Under the pieces are notes generated by a model that had not been told where the DNA came from, made no database searches, and worked only from the letters and a program-made list of their open reading frames with translations. The translations under genes were made by a program, and so were the position numbers. From contig JAUCBJ010003330.1 in assembly GCA_032718475.1 (NCBI GenBank), forward strand, positions 31,259 to 95,258: a stretch of DNA of 64,000 bases, read 5' to 3'. Shown here piece after piece: positions 33,890 to 55,903 of this stretch (positions are counted from its first letter, which is position 1; each line of letters begins with the position of its first letter). The stretch comes from Nemertoderma westbladi (taxonomy: Eukaryota; Animalia; Xenacoelomorpha).

Positions 33890-34730
33890 ACGGATAAGCC
33901 GGGATCCCTCTTGGATCCCGTCACACTATCTAAGCATTCATAATTTAATCAAGCACACTTTAGCAACACACCAATCAGCGTAACAATCAATAGTCAATAC
34001 TTACCAATTTGTAGTTCCCAATGTACAATTTACAGTCTGCAGTTCGCAATATGCAGTTCGCAGTATAAAGTTCGCAACGTAAAGCACAAAGGCCTCTCCC
34101 GGGTACATGTAGGCTTCCTAACTAACCCGATTCCTGCCCCCCTAACACTAAAAAATAGAGACAAAATCTGGATCATCAGCCCCCTAATTACTGTACCAGC
34201 AATCAGTCTTCCCTCTACACTGCTAGCCCTCCGACCGCAACGGTGACCCACCGCCAGCGTTGCTCGCCTTTGAATCCTCCGCACTCCCTTCGTCGCTACC
34301 CCCCGGTGCGCCCGCCGCACCTACCGGTACCTTAGCCCTCCATTTAATGAGTAGCTACCGTAATGGCGCATGCAATCACACAGTCTGACAGTCTAAAGAA
34401 ATCCCGTGGGATTATCGCTGTCATGTCTCGTAGTGCGAGCGGAGGTTATGAAGTAAATAACATATATATATTTGAGTTCAATATAATACTAGCACACGTA
34501 TAATGTTACGGTATAATAGCATCAAACATGTTGCGCTGCAGCCATGCTGCATAAGTGGTTCGCGCATACAGCTGTACTGTGTACAGGGGGTCCTGGGGTC
34601 AGTATCTAGCAGTACTGCAGTAATAAGCAGTCTGGATGTACCGTTAAAGCCGTAAGTATGTATATCCTTAGTATATTCCCTTCACCCATGTTGCCTTATA
34701 ATACAGTATAAAGATTGGGGCGAGCCATGA

Positions 34731-35091
34731 CGATGGGCATGACGATGGGATGGCACCAGGTTGTGGGCCGATCGCCCACACGTTCGATGATGCCCTTTGC
34801 CTCCATATTCTCGATTTCGCGCTTCGCCTGTTCCGATAAGGGAACGGAATGGGGCGGGCTGCATAAATGCATAAAGGTACAAGCATTTTCCACCAACTCT
34901 ATTGACATTGGTGGGCCACACATTGTTTTGAGGTGTCCGTCCGTTTGGAAAACATCCTTAAACTCCTCTAGGAATTTGAGTTTAATTTTGTCGTTGTTTA
35001 TCGAAAGTTCGTGTTTAATTTCGTCAGAGTTTATCGAAAGTTCGTGTTTAATTTCATCAGAGTTTATCGAAAGTTTTGTGTTTAATTTCAT
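34731..35091 (-). pseudogene. pol: Gypsy RT N-terminal remnant fused to the LTR; includes 30 bp coding repeats
   Basis: LEEFKDVF...LKTMCGPPMSIEL...EIENMEAKGIIERVGDRPTTWCHPIV, then an abrupt join to the LTR. KHELSINSDEI repeats at ~34980-35120. Confidence 0.8.
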
Positions 35092-35114
35092 CAGAGTTTA
35101 TCGAAAGTTCGCGT

Positions 35115-36988
35115 TTAATTTCTTTGGATTCTGAGTTTATTGGTAGTCCCCGCCCGTTTTGTAGCTGCGGCGTATGATTGTTTGGGGGCGGGTTCAGCGT
35201 CTGATTTCGCGGAAACGCCCCGAACTTCCCGTTTGATGTCTGGGCGAATAGTTGAAATTGGTTTGGGGAAATCTTTATGTACTATTCCCAAACCTTTGCA
35301 GCCCTGTAGAGATATGTAGATATCTGTTCCCATATCCGGACATAATTATTATTATTATTATTTATTTATTCCATACCATAGGTACATATTAAAATACAGT
35401 AAAATATACCCAAAATACATAAATAAACCCACTCTTTATGAGTGTGGCCCCCTACAGAGAGTTCCATAAAAAGTTTACCCTCACACTCGATTTGGCAACC
35501 GTTTGCTGATTGCAGTGGAAAATCGGGAGGAATTATTTCAGTCGACTCTGGTAATTTCCACTCCGATTGTATCATGGAGCCGGCAACAGTGACCTGGGCT
35601 CCCGTATCAGCGATACACATGTTTTTTCCCACATATTTGCCCGATTTGTGGAAATCTACCGCGATAAGCGCACGTTTATTTGCGGCGGTGCGCTTGTGGA
35701 TGTCAGTGATAAGGACGGCGCCGGATGTTTTTGGAGGAATTTTGGATTTAGGTTGTAAACACTGTGCGCCGAAGTGTCCAGTCCTCCCGCAGTTACTGCA
35801 ATCCTTTCCTGCAGCTCTGCAGGGTGCATTGTTGCTGTGGGGAAACTTCCCTCCACAGTGAAGGCATTCCCCCCATTCTTTTGCCGTGTTGAGGAGTTCT
35901 AGGGCGCGGTTTGAGGAAGGACTCCGCCCCGTAGCGGAAGTTTCCTTCCCTTTCCGGTACCTACTCTTAGGGCGTCGACTACATCCCCTGGGTGGGGGTG
36001 TTTGCGGAGTCCGTACTGCATTCACACGCTGCCCTCTTATGAGTTTAGTATCCCTTGCTGCGATTTCGCGGCACCGGCAAAAATCGAGAGTTTCCAGTCG
36101 TGTTAGGGGTGGTCGTTTAGTAAAGAGTTCCTCCTGTGTTTCATCGTCATGGATACCTCGGATGAGGAGCGTATTAACCCAGTCGTCTGGGGTCATCGTT
36201 TCGAGACCAGCGTCGTCTGCCAGCTCGCACAGTCGTACGTAATAATCATCGAATGTCTGGTTCTCCGACTGTTTTAGTTGGACGAGTTGGTGGCGGTCGA
36301 CAATGAGGTTCCTCTCGGAACGGAGGTATAAGTGGATCTCCTCCATAACTTCCGCAAGAGTTTTGTCCGTGTTTACCGGGATGTTTAGGCGATGGTGGAT
36401 GCGGTTGAGGAACTCGGCAGAACAATTCGAAAAAAAGACTGCAAGTTGATCCTCCCGAGGTTTCTGGGATAAGTGGACAACGGTACAGTAGTTGCTCCAC
36501 TGGATCTCCCAGCATTTGTAGCGCTGAAACGTGATATCTACTTCGAGTTTCTCGGGGGCTCGAGCGTTTAGTTTTACGGTTTCGCCAGGTCCGGGGTTCC
36601 GGGGGGGGGGGGGTGCGCCTGCGGGTCCCTGTCGGAGAAATTCCGCCCTCTCTTCTGCACGGAGACCATCGCGATGTTCCTCGCGGCGTTCATCGTTCTC
36701 CCGGCGGTGTAGCTCCTCTTCCCGGCGGCGTTGTTCTTCCTCGGCACAGTCACGCTGAAGGTAGATCAGAAACTGCGTTAGGTCGGGCGGTTTATGTTTG
36801 TCACCCTGTTCCTGGTCGCCAAGCGCGCCCTTGAGTTGATTGCGTAGTTTGTTGGACGATGTTTTCGGATTGAATTGGATTCCAGCATTTGTACAGTGGA
36901 TCTTAAGTGTCTCCCGGTCGAGATTATCAATTTCCTCGAGCCGTAGATCGAGCCATTCGTCAGGTTGAATGGGTGTTGTCCTTGCCAT
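35115..36988 (-). pseudogene. gag: Gypsy gag-protease
   Basis: QLKQSENQTFDDYYVRLCELA, CSNCGRTGHFGAQC knuckle, IADTGAQVTV protease. The frame continues into 35115..35333 once the 77 bp insert at ~35340-35422 is removed. Confidence 0.88.
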
Positions 36989-37142
36989 CCTGGTCAGCTA
37001 GTGTTGTAAGTTCCACGTAGGTTAAATTCTACTGGCTCTGTTTGCCAGCTACACACTGACACACTGCGCCATGTCATGTCTCGTAGTGCCATGTCATGTA
37101 TCGTAAACTAAGAAATAGAAATCAATCAAGGGAAAAGGGCGC

Positions 37143-37953
37143 CTATCTAAGCATTCATAATTTAATCAAGCACACTTTAGCAACACACCAATCAGCGTAA
37201 CAATCAAAAGTCAATACTTACCAATTTGTAGTTCCCAATGTACAATTTACAGTCTGCAGTTCGCAATATGCAGTTCGCAGTATAAAGTTCGCAACGTAAA
37301 GCACAAAGGCCTCTCCCGGGTACATGTAGGCTTCGCTTCCTAACTAACCCGATTCCTGCCCCCCTAATACTAAAAAATAGAGACAAAATCTGGATGATCA
37401 GCCCCCTAATTACTGTACCAGCGATCAGTCTTCCCTCTACACTGTTAGCCCTCCGACCGCAATGGTGACCCCCCGCCAGCGTTGCTCGCCTTTGAATCCT
37501 CCGCACTCCCTTCGTCGCTACCCCCCGGTGCGCCTGCCGCGCCTACCGGTACCTTAGCCCTCCATTTAATGAGTAGCTACCGTAATGGCGCATGCAATCA
37601 CACAGTCTGACAGTCTAAAGAAATCCCGTGGGATTATCGCTGTCATGTCTCGTAGTGCGAGCGGAGGTTATGAAGTAAATAACATATATATATATTTGAG
37701 TTCAATATAATACCAGCACACGTATAATGTTACGGTATAATAGCATCAAACATGTTGCGCTGCAGCCGTGCTGCATAAGTGGTTCGCGCATACAGCTGTA
37801 CTGTGTACAGGGGGTCCTAGGGTCAGTATCTAGCAGTACTGCAGTAATAAGCAGTCTGGATGTACCGTTAAAGCCGTAAGTATGTATATCCTTAGTATAT
37901 TCCCTTCACCCATGTTGCCTTATAATACAGTATAAAGATTGGGGCGAGCCATG
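37143..37953. repeat. Direct repeat (~810 bp) of 33926-34730: ~495 bp flank plus Gypsy LTR
   Basis: CTATCTAAGCATTCATAATTTAATC...GGGGCGAGCCATGA is near-identical at both positions. Confidence 0.95.
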
Positions 37954-38309
37954 AACACAACAATCGCATCTTAATCACATAGAACCATTAATCAAAGGGT
38001 AGAAATCATAGTTCTGATTGTATTTGGCAGTAATCATTGAGATCGATTAAGAAACACAGCAAGAAATAAGCAGAAATTACAAATTTGCGAATTATTGCAA
38101 GAAAACAAATGGAAATACAGAATACACAGAATTATGCACAAAAACTGAGATTAGTGAGATGCACCTACCGGAAATACAGCCAATTTATAGGTGATTCATA
38201 AAGGATGATGCAATAATCCTCTGATTGGTTCCCCAATCCGCGCTACCATTAGACCAACCTGGAAGCAGCTAGGCCAATAAGGAAGCCGGATTGTGAACCT
38301 ATTCCTTCC

Positions 38310-38671
38310 AGAACCTTCCAGAGCATTCCATGGCCGCACATTGGAGCAATAAGATGTTCTATGCCCTATGATTGGCCCAACTCATCGTTCCATGTGTTGT
38401 ACGCACCTCATTGGTTTATCAAATTGTACCAAATGAAAATAAATTACCCCAAAATGCAAATTTCCCAACTGGGATTCGAACTCGTAACCTATCTGTAATG
38501 CAACCAACGCCTTAACCATCTGACCACTACGCCATGAGATTAACTACGGGTTTTATGTGTATTAATATGAATAGGCATATTACATTACTGTAACTTAATC
38601 AAAATGCGTCGGATTTTAGAAAGTTTTTACGTTAAACTACAAATGCTATCTTATAGTGAAATAATCCATCA
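38310..38671 (-). repeat. Shared (U3-side) part of the BEL-3 3' LTR
   Basis: Near-identical to 52092-52342 plus 53427-53537. Begins TG on the minus strand directly after the PPT-like TTTTCATGGAGCGG. Confidence 0.75.
38464..38533 (-). promoter_or_regulatory. tRNA-derived segment with Pol III A/B boxes inside the LTR (second copy 52247-52315)
   Basis: Minus strand GGCGTAGTGGTCAGATGGTTAAGGCG...GGTTACGAGTTCGAATCCC has an A box-like TGGTCAGATGG and a B box GTTCGAATCC. The acceptor stem does not pair. Confidence 0.65.
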
Positions 38672-40369
38672 CCGCTCCATGAAAACAGTAAGTAAGACTG
38701 TTTTCACCAATCGAAATATAAACTATTTACAAAATACTTCTAAATCTACTGGTGGGACCGAAAATATAAAATAATCACTACCTAATTATTACATACTTAA
38801 TATTGCAGGTACGGCGTAAATACAATCTATCATACATACAAAATACAAATTTACCAATTAACTTTAGTGCATAAAATACAAAAAAAGTTTTCGGTTATCA
38901 AGATAAGCAAATTAAACAAATCAGAACAAAACAAATCAGAACAAATCAAACAAATAATCTCAAGTTTTCAATCACTTGTGTCCTTCTGGGCTCCTCCCCG
39001 AGGCGCACCCACGAGGCGGACACCTTTCTACCACCCCTGGGGCCAGTCTGACTGCTTGTTATTATCAGACCGGGCCGGAGGGTGGCCCGATGCTTCCCGG
39101 GTTCAATTTTCAATTCCCCGATCACACCAGCACAGCTCTTCGAACGTGTAGCCAGATGGTCGGCTACTGTCAACTTACTGTGGCCTGACTGTACATTGAG
39201 CCAACTCAAAGTATAACAAAGAGTCAACCGGCAGGTGGACCAGTCGATAGCGATAGAGCACCAAGGTCGCCCTTGGGCCTAACCGACGGTCTTGTCCCAA
39301 GCGGGCTTGCGCTACCCAACATGGAATTTTGACTCATTTTCACCTGCCTCGCCAGCAGTATTGAAAAGACAATACTGTCTGTAGCTCAAAAGCTACTGAA
39401 CAAGTAACCACTTACCAGTCACTCAACAGATGTTCACAAAATCAAGTACACAACGGTAAGCACAAAATCGAACACATACCATGCACACACAGAAGACATA
39501 ATCAGGTAAGACAAAATCGGTGACAAATCAGAGGGGACAAAATTGTATCGACTCATAAAGAGTCGAGAGTACCTTATTTTGCCGTCAGGGCAAAATAACT
39601 TTGTGTGCACAAAGTATGCTGGGGCGCAGTAAAGATATGGTCCTACTAATACCAGCGGCGTCTGGACCAACTGGCAAGGGTTCCCATACTTACTCGCAGT
39701 GGCCACACATACAATCACGTGTACTCACGTACCCACAGCAACAGAAAGCTCAAAGACCCGAACAAATCCCAAAGACCAATCAGCTGAACATGGAGACAAT
39801 AACATATAGTATCAAAAAAACGGAACAGCTGATGGCCAAAGGAACCCATCCAAGCCCCAAGCAAACTGCCACTGATCGCCCACATACAAAACATAGTTCA
39901 CACCACATGAACCACAAATCACACCATGCCACCACCCCTACTGTGTACAGGACTGGCAGTACGGCAACATGCCGACTAGACGGTACCACGGCACCATGGC
40001 AATTCATGGTTCGTTAGACACGAGGGCCTTCAGTGACTCCCTAGCACTATATATATGATTTAACGTGCCCCCAGACCCTCACGAGTCCGCCGCCGCCTGT
40101 TAAGATTACCCATATAGAGACCTCACCTCTTTAGGTAATCTTTATATATTGCAAATATACATAATAAATTAACCAAATTAAATCAGTCTTATAAAATAAA
40201 CATAATTGCTATTATCTTTCAAATAAGTCTTAAAGTGTCCTCCTGACGAGCTAAAAAGATCGTCCTGCTGGTCTGGATATCTTCTCCTGAGCACTAATTG
40301 CAAACGGTAGGCTCGCAAGCCTTCCTTCTCCTTCGCAAGCCTTCCTTCGCTCCTCCAAAACCAACGTCC

Positions 40370-40477
40370 GAAATAAATACCCAAATATAATATCCAAATA
40401 TAAATATCCAATATAAATATCCAATATAAATATCCAATATAAACATCCAAATAAAATATCTGAATATAATATCCAAT
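40370..40477. repeat. Short tandem repeat (~14 bp AAATATCCAATATA) just 3' of BEL-3 ORF3
   Basis: About 7 degenerate units, bracketed by two hairpin motifs (40306, 40479). Confidence 0.8.
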
Positions 40478-40537
40478 CGGTAGGCTCGAAAGCCTTCCTT
40501 TCTTCATCTCGCCCTCCTATTCCTTGGCCGAACGGGC

Positions 40538-43500
40538 TCATCCACGCCCTCTAATACGATTGGGTGGTGGTCGGGATCGAACTGGACTCGGACTTCGGTG
40601 TCGAGCTGTCGGTGGTTCCAAAACGCTAGGAAAGGGGACGACGGGAGTTTCGCACATCCGTCGTGCGCTCAGTCCTCTAAATCCTCGTCCGATTCCAATT
40701 GTTGGCTTAACATCGGATCGAGTCTCCACAACGCTGGGAGGAAGTCGAAAGGGTGGGACTGTTCCGTCCGCTGACACCTTGCTCTCTGACGTCGTCTGAA
40801 TTCTAATGGGTTCCGGCAAAGCGTATCCTGTCCCTCCGCGTGGTTCTCTAGTGAGGGAAACTGTGCCCCAAGTCATCCGGATTTGCGACTTCGATGTCGT
40901 CCTCTCGGCGACATTTACTACCTTCTCTATCTCTTGTCCGGCCTTCTGGTCTCTAAGTATACGAAGTTGCAGATCATCCTGTGAGTGACGCGTCTTTTCG
41001 GCTAACGGCGTGGCCTTGAAGCCAGTCTCACACAAAACGTCCGTCTCGTCTAAAATACACGAGGTTACGTGTTTGTGATAAAATGCGCTCCTGTATGCCC
41101 AAGCTATCGAATGCCAGGCTCCTCGATTCTGCTGTTTGACTCGCAATTTGTCGAATTCCCCGGCGGTAATCTTGTTCACCACAGTTTGAAAGTTCCAAGT
41201 GTTCTTGTTGTCAGGGTGTACCTGTAGAAAGTAGTCCCGTCCCGCACAACCTTAAATCCGCTATCCAATGGCAATATATCCAGCACCTCCAAGAGTTCAT
41301 TGTATTGAGGCATAGCTGACACGTATCCTTCCTTCGACTTTATGAGAGGGTTTACGGCCCAAAATCCCAAGTGTGCTCTCATAGGGAAATGGCGTCGCTG
41401 TGTCGATACATGCTCGTCTGCTAGATTCTCCCAATGGTCGAATAGCTGTCGAATGATTTTAACTGACATGTGCTCATAGGGGATGTCCCTAAGTTGACAT
41501 TCGGATGCCCTATGACCTTTAATATTACAATACGTGCACTGCACCACGAAACGCCAGCAAGTGTAGAAAGTGTGCGAACGTTGATCCCCGCACCAGTTAC
41601 ATACTAAGTCTGGTAGAGATATATGTTTCGCTCCGCATTTCTTTGCGTGGGGGCCAGTTGCCCCGCATCTGCCACAAATAGTGTTGGCAGGGTACCAAAC
41701 TCGCTCATAGATAAGATCTCCGATGGGGCGAGCGCTACCGTCCACATGATAATTCTCATCATCCGGGTCAGTCAGTATGTTCGTCTCTGTAGGTTGTACA
41801 CAAACCATGGCATCGCTTTTCTCCAACTCGCGTATCTCAGTTCGTGTCTTCCTCGGAAGGTTCTCCTCTATCTCTATGAGTTGCCGCAACGGTTCGTCTA
41901 TTATCGCAAACTCGGTCGGATCCACATCGTCGTGATGGGTGGTAGGCTCGCGAGCCTTCCAGGATCCTTCCGGGCCTTTGAATTCCGCGTGGCGTTCCCT
42001 GTTGTAGGGTGCTAACGTAAACATCGACGGTCTGTCGACTAGGCTTCCCACGTGAGTGAGATAGATGTCCCTGAAAACGCTAAGTCCCGCTCACGTGAAA
42101 ACTTCGCAGTGCGCATCGGTGTTGTAAAAGGGTTGGAGAAATCGTCGGAATACATCAGTATGCGTCCTTCCTCTGTCGTAAAAGGTATGTCCTTCACCGA
42201 GACATAACGGATGTCGCTTTAGAGTCCTAGACACTACATCGGCGATGAAACAAACGTTTACCGAAGATTCTATCGCCAAATAGTATTGCAAGATTATTCG
42301 TGGAGGTGAAGTAATCGCCCAGTACACGCAACCTCGCCACTTTAGCTGTGACTCGAACTCGTTTATGCTGGGAGTATCTCCCTCTCCGTATACGTCCGTG
42401 TATTTGCTCATCTTACTCTCCTTATAATCCCAACTAAACATTAGGTATGAGATATAACCCGTTCCAGTTTTTAGCGTGTTATACTCCCTAAAATATCCTT
42501 GCTCAATAGCCCAAAGCAACAATGGTCTAGTATCCACGTATGGCATAGGCAATCGATCCTCATCCGTGGGCATTCCTGCGAAATCGCTAATAAGGTCATC
42601 CCGTACACCGGATCCGATCTTGACGATGCTCTTGTCAAGCACAACGTCTCGTATGGCCTTTGGCAACATTCTAGCTTCTATGCTACAAGCCAGGTCCATG
42701 GATTTAACTATCCGTTTTATCATCGCCTGTCTTTGCGTCATTCCTTCCGGCATAGGCATCTTTCTGTTGCTCCTCTGTCGGCTGAAGACATGTAACACGC
42801 CATCTGGTGCTCGAATCTGTATGGTCTTCGAAGTGAGGCTTTGCTGATGGCTTCGTCCTTCATTATCGTAAAATATATAACCATTCTCCTTCAGAGATCG
42901 GCTAGTCGCATCCCAATCGTCGAGTAAATCGTCGGTAGGGTTCCAAATTCTCCCAATTGACTTTTCATCATCGAAACTAATAGGTTTACCGGTCCAATTG
43001 GTCGCAATATTGGTGTCGGTTTCAAACGTTCCGACTCCAATCCATAATCGAATCGTTTTCGTCAGATATCCTCGCAAGATACAAGGTGCGATATCCGTCC
43101 CCGCGCGATCCACTTCCTTAAAGTCTGTAATATGTGGAGGCACATTGCGTACGATTTTCTGAACTATCGTTCTACGCAACTCGGCTGACTCTAACACATC
43201 ACCAAAGGTAACCGATAGGAGGAAATCCAGGTTCAAAATGATCTCCGGGTGTTCAACTATAGGAATCTCATAAGTTGTCTCCTCTCGGGTCGGTATACTA
43301 ATAGGAAAGCTGGTTGGTCTCGCGACCGGTACTATCGCTTTAGTAGGATGGGGCTGAGGTTCTCGCGTCATCTCGACATGAGGTATCTGTAGTCTCTGCG
43401 ACAAACGCTGAGCAAATGTGATACTATAGAAGAGCTTGGGTGTCATCTCCTTAGGTTCGGTTTGATCTTGGGATATCCAGTAAAATGGTAGGCTCGCGAG

Positions 43501-44262
43501 CCTTCCGCCGAACTCCTCGATCTCGCTTTTCTCGTACGCCTTGTATGCCCTGTAGAGGCTCAAAGCTTCCCATTTTTCTTGCGTCGACTTATTAGACTCG
43601 TCCACTACCATATTGTAGACGTCTGGTTCGACTAATTTGGGTTCGTAAATAACGATCTCACCCGCGTTCGGTCCACTCATCTTGAACGAATGGTACGGTA
43701 CGCCTTCTTGGTAACGCAGACTTTTGTGGTATGAGCATCGCGCTAATATCGGCTCGGGGTTCTCCGAGTTCAATCGCATAGGAATCGCGTTGTCTTGCTC
43801 GCGCATACATGCTCCACATTTGTAAAACAGTTTGTATATAGAGAACGCGTCCTTTGTCTCTGAATCCGCTCCTCGAGCGCGTCTATAAAGATGCATTCCA
43901 TCAAATTCGTCCCTAGCTGCAGGCAAGGGTTCGTTCACCGTCAAATATTGCAGCGTATGATATAATCGGCGTATCTCCGTGTCTGGATCCTCGCAAATGT
44001 CACTGGCGTCGCATAACGCATCGTAAGGATACAACGCATTGAACTCTGTGCGTAATTCCTCCGCTCTTTTGTTATAAGCATCCAATCGCTGTTTTGTAAC
44101 ATTCGGGTCCGCCTTGGATTTAGCGAGCTTGGCTGTACTCCTAGCCATACTCTCCACTCCAAACACGCTAAAGTTTTTAGCTCCATAACGATTAAACGGC
44201 GCCTAGTGCTCCTGTTCCTGGGTAAACCCCTGACGTAACTCCTTATAAATCTTCTCCGCCAT
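40538..44262 (-). pseudogene. BEL-3 accessory ORF3 (~1240 aa reconstructed): N-terminal unknown domain, DEDDy 3'-5' exonuclease, three zinc knuckles, Arg/Pro-rich tail
   Basis: ATG 44262 is in frame with 42091..44166 across one TAG. ORF 41176..42051 is in the same frame across TGA 42093-42091. ORF 40538..41182 overlaps by frameshift. Motifs: YIFYDNEG, TIQIRAPDGVLHVF, LPKAIRDVVLDKSIVKIGSGVRDDL, YVDTR, LKWRG, YYLAIES; knuckles CGRC..H..C, CNWC..H..C, CTYC..H..C. Confidence 0.8.
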
Positions 44263-44813
44263 TGTATACGCGTATATATGGTTACATATCGTTACGTTTC
44301 TACTAGATGAAGCACAAATAGAGGTTAGATGTGAGGTGACTTAGAGTTTGTTGGCTTTTGGCTCAACTTTTCGGATTCGCGTGATTTCGCATTGGCTCCT
44401 AATCCAAAAAATTGTGCCGATAAAAAACGATTTCCGGGTAAACTAGCCGCGAGTCTAAAAAACTCACCTTTTAATTTCCCAAACTACATTCCCAAAGAAA
44501 TAATGCAGTCGAGAATTAGTTTGGTCTAAATAATAGTAGACACGACTACGTAGAACAAGGCCGATTTTCTTTTCCAAAAAAATTTATCGGTAGGCTCGCA
44601 AGCCTTCCATCTGCTCTTGTCCTCCCCAATTTTAATTTTTATCTAGCTGTATTCTAGAATTCGCATTCACTGGAGAATCATTTTTCTTAAATTTAAATCC
44701 AACTAAATGGATTTGTCTAATAATTTTTGAAAAATTGTCTCACTTGTGGGTTCCAAGTGGAATTCCATTCCTACTGTACACACAATCCCGCTCCTATGTG
44801 ATACATAAGGGTA

Positions 44814-46436
44814 CTACCGTCCATGTTCACATATAAAGACAATGGTTGAAATAGAGGGCAAATAATACTTCTGCCATATTTCCCAGAATTTATTTGCAAG
44901 TAGCTGAGTGATTTTCCAATCTTTGTTGCCGTATCCGTCGCTATTAACGGGTACCGAAATGGGCAACAATGTCGTTGGCGCCTGCATAAGCAGGTGCGCT
45001 GGTGTCAAGGCAAATTGTGCGTCGTTATTGTCTGGGATCAAAGCGATCGGTCGAGTGTTCAAAATCGCTTCGATTTCTATTAACAACGTCGTCAGTTGGT
45101 TGTCTGTCAAAATGTGTTGCGTCGGTATTACTTTAGCCATAGCTGGTTTGATTGAGCCAATCAGCCTTTTCCAAACGCCGCCTCTCCACGGACTGTCTGG
45201 AGTGTTGAAGTTCCAAACAATACGATGAGGACGTAGTTCCTTGGAAATCTGGTTTTGGTCCAACTTTCTTAAAGCTCTGGTTATTTCGTTCCGTGCACCC
45301 ACAAAGTTTGTCCCTTGGTCACAATAAATGGATTTGACCAATCCACGTCTAGCGATAAATTGCCGTAAGGCTAGGATAAAGGCATTGGTGGTCAAATCTG
45401 TCACACGCTCAATATGGACAGCTCTGCTGGCCATGCAAATGAAGATTAATCCCCAACGTTTTACCTGTACCCTTCCGCGTTTCGCGATTATAGGTCCAAA
45501 ACAGTCTATCCCTGTCTCAGTGAAAGGGGGTCTAAACGCCTGTAATCTTGCAAGTGGTAGTTCACTCATTTCTTGGTGTCCTATCCTCGCGTGCACCTTC
45601 TTACAAATCATACAGTTCCGTGTTACCGAACTCAGTGCCTTGCTAAGCCTAATCAGTACAAACCTCGATCATAAGTGTGATAGGCAGTGATGTCTACCCA
45701 CGTGTTTGAGTTGTACATGTGCGTCCAGTATCATAGCGCGCTGTAACTCATGGTGTTGCGGTATGATGATAGGATACCTAAAGTCTAGTGCAAAGTCAAT
45801 GTTCTGGAGTCTGGACTTGTGACAAAGTAAGCCCCTATAAATAATCGGACTCCAACTCAAAATCGGTGAAGACTTGATCTGTTTACCTTGATTGATCGCT
45901 GTGAACTCTCGTGCGAAATATCGCAATTGATAATGTCTTATAATATCAACTTCACAATGACCAACTTCCTCTAAGGTAAGTCTTCTAGGAAAGTCGCGTT
46001 TGCCTCTGGCATATTGTCTCAAACGTTTGAGCCATGCTAACTTGCGGCACGCGTCAGTCCATGATCTAGTTAGGTTTACTATCCTGTCAATGTAAGTGTT
46101 AGTGACGTCATCAGGTAAGGTATAGTCATAATGTGGATACTTGTTTGGACTTGGTAGGCCCACGGGCCTTCCGGTAGGTTTGTCTGAGTCCCCAAGTATG
46201 TCAATCTCCACGGTCTTACCTTTACTGTCCGCACCTAGTGAATCGACTGGCAGTAACGGTTTCAACTCTACAATGTTAGTGTGTTCCTGTGAGTCTGTAA
46301 GTTTCCTAACCTTAGTCACACGCTTAACTGTAGGTGGTAAGTCAAGTATTTTCTTTGAGCGGAGTGTGATTGCTATGGCCACACCTTTGTCGTCCAAAGA
46401 AGTCAAATTCGGTAAGTTTTTAATAGTCCGCTCCAA
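44814..46436 (-). pseudogene. pol: BEL-3 integrase region (pre-IN linker, HHCC finger, DDE core; frameshifted)
   Basis: RYPIIIP...AHVQLKHVG; LPLARL...PFTETGIDCFGP; WGLIFICMASRAVHIE; CDQGTNFVGA; SPWRGGVWKRLIG; LNTRP; LTPAHLL. Confidence 0.92.
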
Positions 46437-46581
46437 TGGGTCTTCTACTGGAGTGTCTAGTAGACAGTCTGGTGAAATGTCTAGTAGACAGTCTGGTGAG
46501 ACATAGCGCGGAACATCCGGCGAAATGTCCTGTCGTCGGTCCCAAAGAAAGTCAAGCGTAGTTTCTGTCAGAAAGTCTGGT

Positions 46582-48114
46582 CTAAAGTCTGGTGGGACAG
46601 TCTGTTGAGATGTCTGGTGGAAAGGCTGGTGAGACGTCCGGTAGACAATCCGTCGAGAGTTCCATAAAACAATCTGGTGAATAATCCGGAGAACAATCTG
46701 GTGTCGCTTCTGGTGAATAATCTGGCGAGTAATCTCCTCGATCTATCGCTCCCACACTTCCTTCCTCGATTTGCTTCTGTATCCCGCGATATCGAGCTTC
46801 CATGCGATCCAGGGCAGACAAGTCGTGTCCAGCTCGCGATCTTATAGATCTATCTCTCGCGTCGAGTTCGAGGTCCGCCTGCGCGTTCGCTGCCTCGCGC
46901 TATCTACGATTTAGTTTGAATTATAGTTGAATCTCCCTTTCGCGTCGATCTGCTACTTGTTGTTATGCCGCTAACTCCGCTTCTTGTATAGCTAGCGTTA
47001 ATTTGTCTCACTTCCAACTTGGCGCCTGCGTCAGATGCCGCTTTCTTCCGAGCTAACTCCGCTGCGTTTACTGTCGCAACTCGTGCTAATTCGTCGGCTG
47101 CAGCTTCTTGTGTCAAATCTTCCTCCAGTCTTCTTAGTTCCAAGGCTTCGAATTCTGCTTGCGCTTTGAGTTGCACAATCCTTGCCTCGTCTTCTCTTTG
47201 TTATTTCTCTCCCTCGATGGCAATCTGTGCCATCTGCCGTTACGCTTCTTCCTCGACAACTTGTTGTCGGTGTGCAACTTCCTGTTGTTGTCGAGTAATT
47301 ACAGATGCTGTTCTACTAACGTTGCCAACGTCGCTCCGCATGCTAACGAATGATCTATCCAGTGGTGGATTTTGGTAGGTTCGCGAGCCTTCCGTAGTAA
47401 GAACTTCCGTCGTCCCTCGCAGTTCGACTTCCGGTTCTTCGGTACGCCGTTTCTACGAAGAAAATTGGTGAGCGTCTCTAACCTCCTGTCCAGGCAGTAT
47501 AGTTCTTCTTCCTCTTCGGGTTGTAACAACGCGTCCGAAACTGACTCACCTAGCAGTTGGTCGAACTGCTCCTGTTGAGCCAATCTTATTACTGACTTAA
47601 ACTGGATAAGGCTTTCCCTCACACTTACCAACTTATCTATTATCTTTACCTGAGTAAAGTTGTCGCCACACAACTCTGCAAGTTCGTGTAAACCTTTAAG
47701 TTTATCTACGGAGGCATGTACCCTACTTTCTATCCTTACCTGTAAGGTGTAGAACTCGTATCTCGACATCGGGGCGGTTAACTCGCGTAAAACGCGAAAA
47801 CCTTCTCCGAGGTTTCGAGTAATCTGGGCCATGTGTCCTCCTATACTTCTAATGACATTTTCTTGGCTTCCCGCCAAGCTTACCATGTCTGGTTCCCGTG
47901 ACCTGGTCTGCGGGACTGTAAGGAAATCCTCGATCCTGCCGTCGCCATGCATTGTGGCTTCCGGTATTTCCATTCGGGGTACCGGCGACACATGCGGTGT
48001 GACATCGGTGGAATCTCGGGTTCTCCTTCTCGGTTCGTCTACTGTTGATCTGTCTGGGTCGCACGAGTCATAGTCGGTAGGTGGGTATCGAGTCAAATGT
48101 GGTGTGTCACTCAT
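46582..48114 (-). pseudogene. gag: BEL-3 gag N-terminal part (fragmented; remainder of gag, PR, RT and RH missing)
   Basis: ATG 48114 ORF followed by coiled-coil-like Ala/Glu-rich fragments, in the position upstream of integrase and resembling the BEL-1 gag N-terminus. No knuckles or catalytic motifs remain. Confidence 0.6.
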
Positions 48115-50732
48115 GTCTTATTATATACGTCAAGTACAGGTAATAAAATGTCAAAGTATCAGAATGTCGAAATGTCAAACTTACCTTGGTATATATAGTA
48201 TATATATACCCTAACCGGTACAAATAAATCAACAAAGTCAGAATGTCGAAATGTCAAAATGTCGAAATGTCCAAATGTCAAATTACCTTGATATATATAT
48301 ATATCATATATATACCCTAACCGGTACAAATAAAACTAACAAAGTATATAATAAAATATGTAATAATCTAGCCTACCGGCTAAATTTGTACGAATAAGTG
48401 AGATAACGGTACATGTTACCAAAATGTAGATCAACAAGTACAAATAATAGGCAAAACAGCAACGTCTAATGGGAAATAAGTACCAACAACACTACTAATT
48501 AGACAGTGAAACCAACAAATTTTGAGTACTACTGTGCTTTTAAGTTTGAATGACACGAGTCGTAAAACTTACGCTCCTTTGATCTTCCAGTCGTGCAAAT
48601 TCCCAAATACAAACCGGACGTGGGTCGTTCCGTTTTTCGGCGTCGCGGACGAATTTTGTGTCTCCCAAACTTTGCGAAAATCGGTCTAATCCTCGAAGCG
48701 GTCCAGAAATTAGTCCTGAAAAGTCGAAGGTGAGAGTTTTACTTCTACTCTACGAAAAATCTTCCTAGGTACCGATACAACTTGGTCTTTAAACCCTATG
48801 TACCTTTTCAAGTACCGAAAAGTAACACCGCACACACACTAACTATTGCTACAAACAAACTATTAGCTAGTCAAATATTAAATACGAAACTACTAGCTAC
48901 CCTAAAGCCTACTGAAGCAGGGGACGTTCTACAAATTACTAATTTTACTAATTTTAAATTGTAAATATCTCCTACCTTTACAATAGCTAACAATATATTT
49001 ATATCTCACTTTAGGTAAGATATATCTACCATTTGCAAATTACAATTGGCAAAATAAACAATAAATATACCTCACTTTGAGATCCTCTATCGTAAGGGCT
49101 ATCCTACGGCCTACAAATCTACTAGTATGAAGCTATAGAATATCTCTAACCGTAAAGTCCAGTAGTATACCGCTTACCAGATCCTAGTAACGATGTATCT
49201 TACCGTAAGATCTCGTAATGAAACGGGCTCGTACAGTATCTGACAACAAATCCCAGTCCAGGGTATCTAAACAAACAGATACAATACACAAACGACTACT
49301 GGCGAGGAGCAGAGCCTAGTGTCTATTCTATGTACGTGAGCGGGTCTAATGCCTACGAACTACACAAAAGGAAACCTGTCCTCTAACCGGTATGGCAGAT
49401 GTACAGTTATAGTAACAGACCAAACTCACGGGAAAACAATCCCCACGCAGCGAATCCTAACTATCGCTGACAGTCCTAAATACCGTAACTTGCCACGGTG
49501 TGATTTATATGGTTTATATACGAGCTAGTGGGTTAACAGACCTAGAGTAACAATACTGATCCCCCTGTACGAAATCAGTCTAAAGAGGGTCGTGCCTAAT
49601 GTAACAATACCGCTGCTCTGACAAAACAACAGTTTAATACCGAAATAAATACTCCTTCTTGCCGTAACTAAATATCAGATCCTAAAATTACAAAATACCA
49701 ACAGTGAGTTATATATATATTCTGCCTAATGTAATCTAAAGTGCGCTATCTAGTAGAACTCTAAGGGTAAATATGTTTTAGGGCGTGTGTGTGTGGGTGT
49801 GTTACAATAAAACAATTTTGGTGTATATCATTTTACTAGGTTTTATTGATTTTCTGACCAAAACAATACCGTGCGCTAGCTACGAAAATAAGCTAGTCGC
49901 GTTTTGTAGAACTTTATACTTACAAATGACGTCAAAGCTCTCTCCTTCCTATCCACAACTCAACCGGGCAACCACGGTGTCAGTAACTACACCCGTGATC
50001 GGCACAAATACCAGATTCTGGTTGTAAGATAAGAAATAGGGGTTAATTGCTACCATACGTTAGCTGATCTGGTATACAAATTTGATTCTAGAACTTTGTT
50101 GCCGCGGTGGTTAGCAGCAATACCTATCAGTACGTGGCAAGGTGCGGTAGGATATTAATAAACCTCCCTAGGCCAAGCGGTGTGCCGGTAGCAGAAATAC
50201 TCCTTGCCTGATCAAATAACTAAGGTTCAGACAGGGGGTGGGGGGTACTAATGTATATTCTACAAAGCGAACCGGTACCAAACGGTCAGTAGTACGAATC
50301 ACTAAATTATGGAACATATGCTGTCCGTACCTAATGTGTACTCGCATACTTACGAACGGCAATAACTCGCACCTGTGAGGTATACAGGTTAACCCAGGGA
50401 TTTGTAGTACTGAGGGGGGGGGGGGGTTCTGTCAGAATATAATTATTTGATCCTAAATTTTGCGGCATCCCAGAAAGGCGTCACGCTTACCCTGATCTAT
50501 AGGTCTTACGTTGGGCAAGGGCGTCAAACAAAGTCTTACCTTCCTCGGAAATCGGGTGCTGCATGGCAAAGGTGGAGTATTTCGAAGGGCGAAGGGGGTG
50601 CGCGGTCTAATCTAATGTGGGCGCTAGCGTGTTGTGGACATCATTCCCTGCGTTGCTGACGGCCTAACGGTCTAGGTGGCCATCTTCCCAATGCTTGGCT
50701 GTCCCAAAGGTGGACGTTTGGAAATATACATG

Positions 50733-51875
50733 ATCAAGGCCTTTGATTCAGTCTCTCGCTCACGTATGTTCAGCATACTTTCATTATATGGGATTCCTGA
50801 TGAAATTATTGCAGCAATCAGATCAGTATACGATGGTTCGACAACATTTGTGTCTACTGTTGACGGTGACACAGAACAATTTGAAGTGTTATGGGGCGTC
50901 CTCCAAGGAGACACACTTGCACCATTCTTGTTCATTATTGTGGTTGACTATGTTCTACGCATGTCCTTAGATCATCATAATGATGATGGGGTGATGATAA
51001 CTCCACCTACTGGCTCCAGAAGTCGAGGAAATCCTGCCAAGTACCTAACTGATCTAGACTTTGCTGATGACTTAGGAGTACTCTCAGAATCATTAGAGGG
51101 AGCCCAGCGGCTCCTCAGCTCATTAGAACATGCTGCTTCTAGTGTTGGTCTTTTTATTAACTCCAGAAAGACCAAAATTCTGACTGTTAACTTTGAAAGT
51201 CCTCAGCAAGTCTCTGATCGGATGAGCATAAGCTCAAAGGATGGTATGCTTGAGCATGTGGACGACTTCTGTTACCTGGGATCATGGATCCGGAAGTCAG
51301 GTGAGGACCTTCGAATACGTAAGGGAAAGGCATGGGCAGCCTTGAATAGGCTTTCCAGGATTTGGAAGTCACCTAGAATTAATCGGAAACTTAAGGTCCG
51401 ATTATTTAGAGCAGCAGTAGTTCCAGTACTCCTCTACGGGAGTCCATGCTGGGCTCTAACTGCTGAGGACACCAAATCTCTGGATGGCACATTCACAAGA
51501 ATGCTACGCCGGGTACATTGTGTCAAGTACAAGGCACACATCTCCAACCAGACACTATATAACATTGGAGGTGTCTCATTGGTTCCCCCAAGCTTGACAC
51601 TAGAACAAAATCGCCTCCGCTTTGCAGGACATTGCTTTCGCCGTGAGGACCAGCCAGTGCATAATCTTGTACTTTGGCAGCCTCATGGAGTGAATAAGCA
51701 TGGTGGACAGCCCATGACTTTCTTGAGACGCATCTTAAAGGACACTGGCCTTAAAGATGCGGATGATCTAGCAAATGTCATGGGTGATAGGGAGTTGTGG
51801 CGGTGCAATTTTGTTGACAAGCCGGCACAGCATTCTTAAAAATGCAGCTGCAATGCAGCATGCCGATCCTAGTAG
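50733..51875 (+). mobile_element. 5'-truncated RTE-clade LINE (RT C-terminal part)
   Basis: KAFDSV, GVLQGDTLAPFLFIIV, DLDFADDL, FCYLGSWI, LLYGS..W.LT, RLRFAGHC. Tail CCTAGTAG. TSD TACATG at 50727-50732 and 51876-51881. Confidence 0.92.
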
Positions 51876-52091: not shown

Positions 52092-53537
52092 AGAACCTTC
52101 CAGAGCATTCCATGGCCTCACATTGGAGCAATAAGATGTTCTATGCCCTATGATTGGCCCAACTCATCGTTCCATGTGTTGTACGCACCTCATTGGTTTA
52201 TCAAATTGTACCAAATGAAAATAAATTGCCCCAAAATGCAAATTTTCCAACTGGGATTCGAACTCGTAACCTATCTGTAATGCAACCAACGCCTTAACCA
52301 TCTGACCACTACGCCATGAGATTAACTATGGGTTTTATGTGTTTTATAAGTTTAACCCATAGAGGACTATCTTGATTTTTATTCAGAAAGGAATGGTACT
52401 TGGAAACATGTTTTGCCTTCTCTTTGGACTGCAAAACAAACTTGTCATGACATCCTGTTGCTTGAACTCGGTCGCCCGTCTCCAAAGGCGGTTATCCTTA
52501 ATAGACAGTGGAAATTCCTACAGAAAATTTCTTCCAATCCGGAAAGACACTCGCCTGTTATTTTCGCCTTAGGTCTTGTCCGACAAGCTGGTACCACTAT
52601 GGGAAGAGCCGTGGATTCCATTCTGAATAACCCCGAATCCTGCAGTTTAAACTTCTATAGTGATAAACTAAGGAACGATGTTTTAATTAGTACCTCAACC
52701 CGTCGAGTTATCTACACTCAAATGAACCCGGATTTCACTACTCTACCTTGTTATATATCCAGAGAAGCTCTGGCCGAGCGCAAACGTGTAGCTCTAACTC
52801 GTTTTCGTTTGATGTCCACCCATTTAGCGGTTGAAACAGGGCGTTGGTCCAGAATTCCCCCCGATAATAGACGCTGTAAATGCGGGAGTATACAAACAGA
52901 GATACACGTGATCCGAGACTGTCCGCTTTTGGATGAGCTTCGTTCGGCTCACCCGTCCCTTAATTTCAACTCTTTTACGACCTTTTTTTATTCCAACCGC
53001 TTGGAGGAGTGCGGTTCATTCTTAGTTAGATGCTTGAACACACTTGAAATAATTTAAAACATATCTCCGTGTAATTAACTTATTAAATTATTTATTTGTA
53101 TATATATATATATATATATATATTAGGTAGTATTAATCATACTTAAATACGCGTTTGAGCCTTTGTTTAAATATTATTTTCTTGGACGATTGTTGCGACT
53201 CATAGCCCACTGCCCAATTTCACACAAATTAATTAAAGCTTATATTTGTCCCGGTATTTTGCCTGTCGGTTAATGTACCGTCATTTTAATATTATCCGTC
53301 CATTTGGCTATTGTTTTGTTTGTTTTTGTTACATTGTTTTCCGTTGTTACGTCTCTTCTTGTCAGTTGCTTGTGGCTATTTACTGGTAATTTTTATCGTC
53401 AATAAACTTAATAATAAAATAATAATATTAATATGAATAGGCATATTACATTACTGTAACTTAATCAAAATGCGTCGGATTTTAGAAAGTTTTTACGTTA
53501 AACTACAAATGCTATCTTATAGTGAAATAATCCATCA
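52092..53537 (-). repeat. Shared (U3-side) part of the putative BEL-3 5' LTR, split by a LINE insertion
   Basis: 52092-52342 and 53427-53537 together match 38310-38671. Confidence 0.72.
52343..53426 (+). mobile_element. 5'-truncated non-LTR retrotransposon 3' end (RTE-X-like C-terminal zinc finger)
   Basis: ORF 52413..53057 has LTRFRLMSTHLAVETGRWSRIP...RCKCG..QTEIHVIRDCP. The 3' UTR ends AATAAAC(TAA)-rich. It is absent from the other LTR copy, which defines its boundaries. Confidence 0.8.
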
Positions 53538-54448: not shown

Positions 54449-54604
54449 TAATTTTTTAATATGATTATGATCGGAAATGGAAAAAATGAGGAAGCGTGTC
54501 GCTATTCAATTATAAAATGCGTTAGTTAATTATCACATACCATGATTATTTATTTTTTAGGAAAAAATGAAAATGTTATAATAAATACAATTCAATTTAT
54601 TAAA

Positions 54605-55903
54605 ATGGCGGAATTCTCTATTGTTAATGACAATAATGCTACAGCATATGATTATATTTGCGCAAAAGAAAGGAATGCATGGGAACTGGCTCTGAAAATC
54701 TTCCTATATGGTTCTGTGTCAGTTGGGGGAATATGTGCCAATATATTGGGTTTGATTGTTATTGCTACAATACCAAAACAGCAACTGAAAATGATTGACG
54801 TGATAGCTGGTAATCTTCTAATGTCTGACTTAATCTACGTTACAGGCAGTCCCTTTCTTCTAGCTTCTCTTGTAAAGAAAACGTGGTTGTTTGGTGATTT
54901 AGGATGCAGAATAATATTCGCTTTGGATGCGCTAACAATGTCAGCAAGTGTATTTACTTTGGTAAAAATGAGTTTCGAGAGATACCAAGTAATGAACAAG
55001 AAACGTCGAGCGAGTTATATCAACAAGCGACATTTAGTTTACATTTGGATTCCGAGTATATTATTCGCATTACCATTCGCCATATTCACCTGGAAATCTT
55101 CTACCCCTTGTGGAGAAACATACTGTGGAGGTTCTTGGCCAAATTTTTCGGAAACAATAAATTCGTTTACAGTTTATATTGTTTTCCTCAGCTTTGTTCT
55201 CTACATCATCCCCTTGTGTGTCATCGCAGTTGCTTACAGAGCTATGATCAAGAGCATCAATAGCCAGCTTCGATTGGCCCTTGGCAACAATGGGCCGCGG
55301 CTTCTGGCTGAGAGTGCAATGGTCAACTCAGAAAATTCTGAGGACACAGCAGAAAGGCCACTGCTCATGGATAAAAGCTCACAGTTAACAACAGAAAGTT
55401 CAATAGCACTGGTCAATATCACAACGGACAATCAATCGATCGTCGATGGAGGAAATAGAATAGTCTCTCCTGGAGATACAGATACCCCTGAATCACCCCA
55501 ACCCTTAATGATCGCATACCCCGGTAAGGATGCCGTTCACCAAGTCCCAACGCCCAGACATGACAAAAGCAAAGCAAGAGATAGCATGCATCGGATAAAT
55601 ATACAAATTACACGAATGGTAATAGCTGTAATCTTGGCGTTTACATTTTGCTACTTACCTTTTTGGACCTGGCAATTATCTTTGCATTTGATCAAAATTC
55701 ATAAATATATTCAGATACCTGGTGCGACAATGAAGGTAATTCAAATGGTGGTGGTTTTTTCTTCTTATATGAATGCCATAGCGGACCCAGTTCTTTGTTT
55801 CATTCTTTGCAGCAAGTATCGTGCAAGATTGAAGTTATTGATGGGATCGATATTTTGCAAACACCAGGAATCAGTGGAACTACCCAGTTTTCAAGGTCCA
55901 TAG
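54605..55903 (+). CDS. Class A (rhodopsin-like) peptide GPCR, somatostatin/urotensin-II/MCH/allatostatin-C receptor-like, single coding exon
   Basis: Seven hydrophobic segments. GICANIL (TM1), NLLMSDL (TM2), WLFGDLGC, MSFERY, WIPS..FALP, YIIPL, CYLPFWTWQL (TM6), NAIADPVL (TM7). The ORF opens at 54542, but ATG 54605 has better context and follows a possible acceptor at 54560. Confidence 0.93.
   Translation: MAEFSIVNDNNATAYDYICAKERNAWELALKIFLYGSVSVGGICANILGLIVIATIPKQQLKMIDVIAGNLLMSDLIYVTGSPFLLASLVKKTWLFGDLGCRIIFALDALTMSASVFTLVKMSFERYQVMNKKRRASYINKRHLVYIWIPSILFALPFAIFTWKSSTPCGETYCGGSWPNFSETINSFTVYIVFLSFVLYIIPLCVIAVAYRAMIKSINSQLRLALGNNGPRLLAESAMVNSENSEDTAERPLLMDKSSQLTTESSIALVNITTDNQSIVDGGNRIVSPGDTDTPESPQPLMIAYPGKDAVHQVPTPRHDKSKARDSMHRINIQITRMVIAVILAFTFCYLPFWTWQLSLHLIKIHKYIQIPGATMKVIQMVVVFSSYMNAIADPVLCFILCSKYRARLKLLMGSIFCKHQESVELPSFQGP

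What the first reader, a model, noticed from the sequence alone, without database searches (positions are those of the whole stretch)
40306..47393. Six co-oriented copies of a 20-nt hairpin with YNCG tetraloop spread through BEL-3, conserved across reading frames
Seen: GGTAGG(C/T)TCG(C/A)(G/A)AGCCTTCC at 40306, 40479, 41941, 43487, 44589 and 47374, plus a partial copy at ~40333. On the element's sense strand it is GGAAGGCU-[UGCG/UUCG/CGCG]-AGCCUACC: an 8 bp stem with a constant A.A mismatch, and variation almost only in the loop. It lies in gag (KAREPT), in ORF3 in two different frames (GRLASLP, WKAREPT), in the pol-ORF3 spacer and in the 3' UTR, so the constraint is on nucleotides. I did not see it outside BEL-3. 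Known: UNCG-type tetraloops are stable RNA motifs and CCHC knuckles bind stem-loops. Inference: a dispersed cis-acting RNA signal (packaging, export or self-marking), possibly read by Gag or the ORF3 knuckles. A palindromic DNA-binding site is the alternative.
Basis: partly seen in the sequence, partly recalled or inferred. Interest (0 to 1): 0.8.

Follow-up and report, generated by a model that had tools for sequence, protein, structure and literature searches.

The report
Evenly spaced hairpin tags in retrotransposon
A decayed BEL/Pao-type jumping gene that lacks its own copying enzyme carries seven same-direction, nearly evenly spaced copies of one 20-base self-complementary word, across coding and non-coding parts, which likely act as RNA hairpin tags that mark its transcript for pickup by element-family proteins.

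Summary
The motif is real. All six copies are at the stated places (chance mean 0.01). A seventh, missed copy at 46153 swaps the loop-closing pair U-A to C-G. All seven face the same way and none lies outside the element in this window. Gaps are 1221, 1564, 1102, 1546, 1462 and 173 nt, more even than random (p=0.004 largest gap). Four copies sit in coding linkers, probably using all three frames, so the constraint is on nucleotides. The host is a multi-copy BEL/Pao-type family. This copy lacks protease, RT and RNase H but has an ORF3 with a likely DEDDy exonuclease-like domain and three CCHC knuckles. Corrections: 7 pairs plus an A.A mismatch; not a canonical UNCG loop; one copy is mispaired on the sense strand. 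Best reading (0.4): dispersed RNA hairpin tags read by element-family protein so the RT-less RNA is packaged in trans. Rivals: RNA dimer zipper, DNA binding site, host-factor signal, neutral copying. Covariation is not significant with seven copies. Per-base conservation among family copies, genome-wide counts and expression are untested. My literature searches found no such array in an LTR retrotransposon.

The parts
47374..47393 (-). Hairpin copy 1 (5'-most on the element's sense strand), in the gag linker; loop CGCG; one arm mismatch (C.A) on the sense strand
46153..46172 (-).
44589..44608 (-). Hairpin copy 3, in the integrase-ORF3 spacer, upstream of the predicted ORF3 splice acceptor; loop UGCG
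43487..43506 (-). Hairpin copy 4, in the N-terminal part of ORF3 (reads GRLASLP); loop CGCG
41941..41960 (-). Hairpin copy 5, in the ORF3 linker between the exonuclease-like domain and the knuckles (reads WKAREPT); loop CGCG
40479..40498 (-). Hairpin copy 6, 3' UTR; loop UUCG
40306..40325 (-). Hairpin copy 7, 3' UTR; loop UGCG; in this copy the neighbouring partial duplicate competes with the local fold
40333..40345 (-). Partial duplicate (one arm plus loop); replaced by other letters in a contig of run X4
   Evidence: tables 5, 5c
46750..48117 (-). gag-like region: helical N-terminus, linker, coiled coil; broken by stops and frame changes; no DUF1759 or zinc knuckle detected
44814..46742 (-). 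Low-complexity repeats, linker and BEL/Pao-type integrase; no protease, RT or RNase H between gag and integrase; broken
44260..44330 (-). Predicted branch point, pyrimidine tract and AG acceptor (44304-44303), and ORF3 start codon (44262-44260)
   Evidence: sequence inspection; inference
40538..44262 (-). ORF3, in three pieces in this copy: likely WRN/DEDDy exonuclease-like domain (about 42930-42200) and three CCHC knuckles (about 41675-41495)

Best explanation
The seven same-direction, evenly spaced 20-base words are likely RNA hairpin tags on the element's transcript, predicted to be bound by an element-family protein (most plausibly the CCHC knuckles of ORF3, or a helper's Gag) so that this RT-less RNA would be recognised, compacted and packaged in trans. 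Shown: the sequence, number, orientation and spacing of the copies, their position in linkers and non-coding stretches, one double change that keeps pairing, and the lack of protease, RT and RNase H in this copy. Predicted: the hairpin with an A.A internal mismatch, and the exonuclease-like identity of ORF3. Inferred: that the strand used is the sense RNA, that a protein reads it, which protein, and that the outcome is packaging. The copies probably spread by short template switches during reverse transcription and were kept where the proteins tolerate them.
For: Seven copies against at most two by chance. All are co-oriented, and the A/T asymmetry at arm position 3 is the same in 7 of 7, as expected if a strand-specific internal mismatch is read. 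14 of 20 columns are invariant. Changes fall mostly in the loop (p=0.008-0.03), and the element shows no CpG depletion to explain that (CpG o/e 1.13). Copy 46153 changes both sides of one pair. Spacing is more even than random: largest gap p=0.004, CV p=0.033 for all seven; p=0.0007 if the two 3' copies are merged, which is a post hoc choice. In 220-nt context the sense hairpin has pairing probability 0.97-0.99 for four copies, about 0.5 for two and 0 for one. The element lacks RT yet belongs to a multi-copy family (13671, 8831, 6707 and 379 contig pieces laid in four runs), so it would depend on trans packaging if that lack is family-wide. ORF3 carries three CCHC knuckles while gag has none. 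Spacing and shared motifs of dispersed packaging signals matter for assembly in RNA viruses (PMC6281560, passages).
Against: Covariation is not significant (404 of 500 shuffles reach one double change). The sense-strand folding preference is matched by a planted-motif null. The 47374 variant pairs on the antisense strand, not the sense strand. Local folds are unremarkable (z -0.3 to -2.8). No copy lies in the 2.4 kb upstream of gag, where retroelement packaging signals usually sit (usual position recalled, and see PMC5874298 passages). Four copies fall downstream of the predicted ORF3 splice acceptor, so they would not separate genomic from spliced RNA. BEL-2 in the same window has a homologous ORF3 with three knuckles but no dispersed hairpin, and BEL-1 also lacks RT and has none. 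So neither ORF3 nor RT loss requires the array. Whether the RT loss is family-wide is unknown.
Confidence: 0.4

Rival explanations
1. RNA-RNA zipper: each word is a near-perfect palindrome, so copies on two RNAs would convert from hairpins to an 18-pair duplex and join two genomes, or an RT-less RNA and a helper RNA, at regular intervals.
For: Duplexes beat two hairpins for all 28 copy pairs (mean -13.5 kcal/mol on sense, -10.9 on antisense). Six of seven sense loops stay self-complementary with G.U pairs, against three of seven antisense loops. Retroviral dimer sites are palindromic stem-loops that switch to extended duplexes (PMC5874298, passages).
Against: Any hairpin gains energy as a duplex. 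The UUCG copy breaks central pairing. The 46153 double change weakens its pairing with the other copies (-4.5 to -10.6), which fits selection on the hairpin rather than on cross-pairing. A four-base loop closed by a stem is a poor kissing loop (recalled).
Confidence: 0.15
2. DNA site: an inverted pair of 8-bp half-sites 4 bp apart, bound as double-stranded DNA by an element-encoded or host protein, for example to keep the element free of silencing along its length, as VANC proteins do for VANDAL transposons.
For: The palindrome with a variable centre fits a dimeric binder. The double change keeps DNA symmetry too. Even spacing would suit a chromatin-wide effect. TE-encoded sequence-specific anti-silencing exists (PMC5735166, abstract and section list).
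Against: A symmetric dimer site should occur in both orientations and with mixed A/T at arm position 3; 7 of 7 are identical in both respects. VANC targets are described as non-coding and often tandem, while four of seven copies here are in coding sequence. No DNA-binding domain was detected in the element's extra ORF.
Confidence: 0.15
3. Host-read RNA signal: the hairpins recruit a host RNA-binding protein for transport to the germ line, nuclear export or stability, or they stall 3'-5' exonucleases, the element's own ORF3 nuclease included.
For: The copies lie in both the predicted genomic and spliced RNA. BEL-2 has a homologous ORF3 but no array, which weakens a strict ORF3 partnership. An exonuclease-homology domain helps bind stem-loop localisation signals in Egl (PMC13186709, passages).
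Against: Egl signals have two helices and lack overt sequence identity (same paper), whereas this word is short and nearly invariant. There is no Rfam match to any copy. At -7.6 kcal/mol the hairpin is a weak nuclease block.
Confidence: 0.15
4. No function: one small palindrome was copied around inside the element by template switching at an RT pause site, or is the footprint of a tiny mobile unit, and survived where it did no harm.
For: Copying within one RNA gives co-orientation for free. Local partial duplicates exist at 40333 and next to 46153. With the pyrimidine that precedes every copy on the + strand, the unit is 21 nt, a whole number of codons. Seven copies give little statistical power.
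Against: No target-site duplication at six of seven copies, and 3 bp at one. No copy in the other 52 kb of the window. Neutral copying does not predict even spacing, loop-biased change or a pairing-preserving double change.
Confidence: 0.12

Closest known systems
Multiple dispersed packaging signals of ssRNA viruses (MS2, HBV pregenome, picornaviruses; PMC6281560, passages read)
   Same: Many short stem-loops with a shared motif along the whole RNA; spacing and motif both matter for assembly.
   Different: Those signals are degenerate in sequence and read by a coat protein. Here 14 of 20 bases are invariant, there are only seven copies about 1.4 kb apart, the host is an LTR retrotransposon, and no binding is shown.
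Retroviral and Ty1 dimerisation/packaging hairpins (HIV-1 SL1, MuLV SL-A to SL-D with GACG loops; PMC5874298 passages; Ty1 papers PMC6844567 and PMC5454406 seen as search listings only)
   Same: Palindromic stem-loops with an internal loop, able to form extended duplexes, bound by CCHC nucleocapsid.
   Different: Known ones cluster at the 5' end. These start 0.7 kb inside gag, run to the 3' UTR, repeat one sequence and are absent from the leader.
VANC proteins and their target motifs in Arabidopsis VANDAL transposons (PMC5735166, abstract and section list)
   Same: A family-specific short motif repeated within a transposon that also encodes an accessory protein.
   Different: DNA transposons and DNA-level binding, with non-coding, often tandem targets. 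Here the motif is a dispersed palindrome, four of seven copies in coding sequence.
DEDDy exonuclease ORF3 of rotifer Juno/Vesta LTR retrotransposons (PMC5408684, passages read)
   Same: A third ORF downstream of pol with a DEDDy-type 3'-5' exonuclease-like domain.
   Different: The rotifer families named there are Juno and Vesta (Ty3/gypsy group, recalled), not BEL/Pao. This ORF3 is about 1200 residues with three CCHC knuckles. The words 'hairpin' and 'stem-loop' do not occur in that paper's main text.
Egalitarian-BicD recognition of stem-loop localisation signals (PMC13186709, passages read)
   Same: An exonuclease-homology domain contributes to binding structured RNA without using its catalytic residues.
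   Different: A host adaptor, with longer two-helix signals of little sequence identity. It is an analogy only; no homology to Egl was tested.

Membership tests
BEL/Pao LTR retrotransposon (host element) | BEL/Pao-type integrase | tested here: met
   186 homologues at E<=0.001 among 876 candidates; most of the 120 listed carry DUF5641 (PF18701); best 44% identical. 37% identical to the integrase of BEL-2, whose pol has Peptidase_A17 and DUF5641.
BEL/Pao LTR retrotransposon (host element) | Protease, RT and RNase H in pol; DUF1759 and knuckles in gag | tested here: not met
   No Pfam hit and no room between gag and integrase in this copy. It is a deleted or non-autonomous derivative.
BEL/Pao LTR retrotransposon (host element) | Paired LTRs | tested here: inconclusive
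   No LTR pair by self-BLAST. Depth rises below about 40000 and at 49044-50225. An RTE-like RT fragment lies at 50676-51839 where a 5' LTR might be.
UNCG extra-stable tetraloop | Loop U-N-C-G | tested here: not met
   3 of 7 sense loops (UGCG x2, UUCG); the others are CGCG x3 and CGUG.
UNCG extra-stable tetraloop | C-G closing pair (recalled requirement) | tested here: not met
   U-A in 6 of 7; C-G only in the copy with the CGUG loop. The UUCG copy folds at the same -7.6 kcal/mol as the others.
Dispersed packaging signals | Multiple stem-loops with a shared motif spread along the RNA | tested here: met
Dispersed packaging signals | Specific binding by capsid or nucleocapsid protein and an effect on assembly | not testable with these tools
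   needs binding and packaging assays
Retroviral-type dimer initiation site | Palindromic loop able to form an extended duplex | tested here: inconclusive
   Duplex favoured in silico for all 28 pairs; 6 of 7 sense loops self-complementary; any palindrome would do this.
Retroviral-type dimer initiation site | Location in the 5' leader | tested here: not met
   No copy upstream of 47393.
Micro-transposon / MITE footprint | Target-site duplications | tested here: not met
   0 bp at six copies, 3 bp at one.
Micro-transposon / MITE footprint | Copies outside the host family, in both orientations | tested here: inconclusive
   None in the rest of the 64 kb window; no whole genome is held.
VANC-type DNA target motif | Non-coding, often tandem motifs bound as DNA by an element protein | tested here: not met
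   4 of 7 copies are in coding sequence and dispersed; binding not testable.
DEDDy exonuclease ORF3 | WRN/RNase D-like fold with ExoI-III acidic motifs | tested here: inconclusive
   ESM Atlas: 24 of 30 feature hits are DNA_pol_A_exo1 clusters at 0.90 with 154-157 shared features (4-10% of shuffles reach 0.9). The only PDB hit of the two-sequence profile is the WRN exonuclease at E=0.89. D-x-E and a later D align between BEL-3 and BEL-2. No Pfam hit. The model was unusable (pLDDT 32).
Any Rfam family | Covariance-model match | tested here: not met
   Four sub-threshold hits in 38500-50700, none on a motif copy.

The most novel reading that the evidence does not exclude
A self-marking system inside an LTR retrotransposon: one family-specific hairpin is laid down about every 1.4 kb through coding and non-coding RNA and read by the element's own exonuclease-knuckle ORF3 protein. 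The protein would spare, compact or deliver tagged RNA, letting an RT-less family ride on helper machinery. This would be an RNA-level counterpart of VANC/VANDAL and would give the unexplained DEDDy ORF3s a cognate target.
Probability: 0.18. Interest if true: 0.88.

Novelty: new variant of a known kind. Interest (0 to 1): 0.66.

Why it matters
Known retroelement packaging and dimer signals sit together near the 5' end. A single near-invariant hairpin repeated at regular intervals through gag, the integrase linker, ORF3 and both non-coding stretches would show that an LTR retrotransposon can use the dispersed-signal logic described for RNA viruses. It also offers a short, defined ligand with which to test what the exonuclease-type third ORFs of retrotransposons do, which is an open question (PMC5408684 states their activity is undemonstrated). 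If it proves neutral, it is still an unusual record of short-patch copying within a retroelement.

Tried and rejected
No whole genome is held, so no genome-wide count could be made.

ORF3 homologue searches were empty: 0 of 6693 candidates, 0 in 1.84 billion representatives, 0 of 4987 with the two-sequence profile, and 0 of 32 stretches in metagenome contigs. The single-sequence AlphaFold model had pLDDT 32 and was not used for a fold search. The Atlas gave no answer for the knuckle part.

Motif scans of public collections gave 10 metagenome loci and 68 viral loci, each with one exact match. Three of the 78 have a second, looser, non-hairpin match, and none encodes anything like BEL-3. I read these as chance.

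No RNA holder was listed, which says nothing on expression. In one search only 40 of 1645 difference rows were shown. None of the 40 falls in the 140 motif bases, but only about 0.5 would be expected, so this is uninformative.

Sense-versus-antisense folding was rejected as evidence after the planted-motif null. The covariation statistic is not significant. CpG decay as the cause of loop variation is not favoured (o/e 1.13 in the element), although the RTE fragment nearby is CpG-poor (0.46), so methylation may act in this genome. A small-RNA target-site reading was set aside because the double change keeps self-pairing rather than sequence. BEL-1 and BEL-2 have no dispersed hairpin of their own.

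Literature: ten full-text searches found no report of a regularly spaced hairpin array in an LTR retrotransposon; one search returned 0 papers. The library lacks most subscription papers, and no supplements were read. PMC10309623 (CERV of Cer1) was seen as a listing; a word search for stem-loop, RRE and cis-acting in it found 0 passages.
Full report
1. Observation. At up to three mismatches chance gives 0.01 matches and 0 of 100 shuffles reach the count. A weight-matrix scan of the whole window scores the seven at 31-38 bits and the best unrelated site at 12, so there is no further copy in the element and none outside it in these 64 kb. Markov resamples of the element never repeat a comparable spaced word more than twice (0 of 200; observed 7). 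On the element's sense (-) strand every copy is a 2-pair plus 5-pair stem with an A.A mismatch and a four-base loop. 14 of 20 columns are invariant. Five copies fold at -7.6 kcal/mol, the seventh at -9.6 and the gag copy at -3.1, because one arm base mispairs on the sense strand.

2. What varies. Loops are UGCG twice, UUCG, CGCG three times and CGUG. Changes are 5 of 28 loop positions against 3 of 112 arm positions (p=0.008; 0.03 if the shared variant is counted once), and the element is not CpG-depleted (o/e 1.13). Two of the three arm changes are in copy 46153 and turn the closing U-A into C-G. With seven rows this is not significant against the tool's shuffle (404 of 500). The closing pair is U-A in six of seven, so these are not canonical UNCG loops (requirement recalled). 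The sense strand folds the hairpin better than the antisense strand in six of seven 220-nt contexts, but a motif planted at random does so in two of three cases; I do not count this.

3. Spacing. From the 5' end the gaps are 1221, 1564, 1102, 1546, 1462 and 173 nt. With the end copies fixed, the largest gap is smaller than random at p=0.004 and the CV at p=0.033. Merging the two 3' copies (post hoc) gives a mean of 1379 nt and p=0.0007. The test does not cover the 2.4 kb upstream of gag, which has no copy.

4. Host element. The - strand carries a gag-like region, low-complexity repeats and then directly an integrase of BEL/Pao type (186 homologues among 876 candidates, most of the 120 listed with DUF5641). 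Protease, RT and RNase H are absent, gag has no knuckle, and all frames are broken. A predicted splice acceptor at 44304-44303 precedes an ORF3 start at 44262 (inference). ORF3 has no database homologue but matches the ORF3 of BEL-2 in the same window (E=1.6e-4). Three weak lines point to a WRN/DEDDy exonuclease-like domain: Atlas features (24 of 30 hits, score 0.90), a lone PDB hit to the WRN exonuclease (E=0.89) and aligned acidic motifs. Three CCHC knuckles follow. Four copies of the word are in coding linkers: two in phase 0 (GRLASLP, GRPVGLP), one in phase 1 (WKAREPT), and the gag copy probably in the third phase (EGSRTY), since that frame continues into the coiled coil (inference). None lies in the integrase core or the exonuclease-like domain.

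5. Family. Contigs of four DNA runs (at most three samples, three studies) cover all 30 bins of 38800-50600, with 13671, 8831, 6707 and 379 pieces from 80 to 100% alike. The family is therefore multi-copy and diverged. The output lists only 40 of 1645 differences, too few to test the motif. There are three hints. Among 15 of 151 joints shown, three rows rejoin the window at 44585-44586 with 21-27 letters on the shorter side, the stretch that is mostly the spacer copy; one of these rows is in three runs, and the tool warns that such short joints often come from repeats. A contig of X4 fits up to 40327 and then replaces the partial duplicate. The base beside copy 41941 reads C in nearly all laid depth, as it does beside the three non-coding copies, so the unit may be 21 nt. 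Per-base conservation across copies remains untested, and no genome was held for a global count. Public collections hold only isolated single matches (78 loci), and Rfam has nothing on the copies.

6. Mechanism. I commit to dispersed RNA hairpin tags read by an element-family protein, with packaging in trans as the likeliest outcome (0.4). The fixed orientation, fixed asymmetry, loop-biased change, double change and even spacing are shown. RNA-level action, the reader protein and the outcome are inferred. Against it: no copy in the leader; four copies would also be in the spliced ORF3 message; BEL-2 has the ORF3 without the array and BEL-1 lacks RT without the array; the gag copy pairs better on the antisense strand. 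Rivals are an RNA dimer zipper (0.15; duplexes favoured for 28 of 28 pairs and six of seven sense loops self-complementary, but the double change weakens cross-pairing), a DNA site of VANC type (0.15), a host-read transport or stability signal (0.15) and neutral copying (0.12; no target-site duplication at six of seven copies).

7. Comparison. It works most like the dispersed packaging signals of RNA viruses (PMC6281560, passages) and resembles retroviral palindromic dimer hairpins in shape (PMC5874298, passages), but it fails their 5'-leader location and repeats one near-invariant word. VANC/VANDAL (PMC5735166, abstract and section list) is the closest motif-plus-accessory-protein system, at DNA level. 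DEDDy ORF3s are described in rotifer LTR elements (PMC5408684, passages), with no mention of hairpins in the main text. Egl shows that an exonuclease-homology domain can help bind stem-loops (PMC13186709, passages). Ten full-text searches found no regularly spaced hairpin array in an LTR retrotransposon. The library is incomplete and no supplements were read. Four look-ups of earlier findings returned one unchecked note on a similar ORF3 in another genome and nothing on the motif.

8. Verdict. The feature is real, non-random and stronger than first reported (seven copies, even spacing, one pairing-preserving double change), with its function unproven. I rate it a new variant of a known kind, interest 0.66. 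The boldest reading not excluded, a self-marking hairpin read by the element's exonuclease-knuckle protein, has probability 0.18 and would merit 0.88.

Noticed in passing
window 30076-32667 (+) and 40538-44262 (-): BEL-2 and BEL-3 share a homologous third ORF (24% over 206 residues, E=1.6e-4) with a likely WRN/DEDDy exonuclease-like domain and three CCHC knuckles. The paper I read describes DEDDy ORF3s in rotifer Juno/Vesta elements only, so this may extend them to BEL/Pao.
   Followed up: partly
window 6066-11935 (+): BEL-1 keeps gag, a protease-like motif and integrase but shows no RT or RNase H: a second RT-less, integrase-retaining BEL/Pao element in the same window.
   Followed up: partly
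window 33926-37954: An element with 98% identical direct repeats of about 810 bp (33926-34730, 37143-37954) encloses only one 543-codon gag-like frame with a zinc knuckle on the - strand.
   Followed up: no
window 38310-38671 and 52092-53537: Two 98-100% identical copies of a short repeat with a tRNA-like A-box/B-box head (probable SINE); the second is split by an insertion of about 1.1 kb.
   Followed up: no
window 50676-51839 (+): RTE-like non-LTR RT fragment (RVT_1 and DUF6451) at the 5' end of BEL-3, CpG-depleted (o/e 0.46).
   Followed up: no
window 17728-18572: Tandem 163-bp units, each containing a palindrome of about 27 bp.
   Followed up: no
window 28996-29648: Array of 34-37 bp units between the integrase and ORF3 of BEL-2.
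   Followed up: no
window 54530-55903 (+): Uninterrupted rhodopsin-family GPCR frame (7tm_1, E=1.7e-37), followed by a 1.7 kb direct duplication (55900-57591 / 58346-60075).
   Followed up: no
window 49044-50225 and 38800-39981: Raised contig depth at both ends of BEL-3, although the two stretches do not resemble each other; the LTR structure is unresolved.
   Followed up: partly
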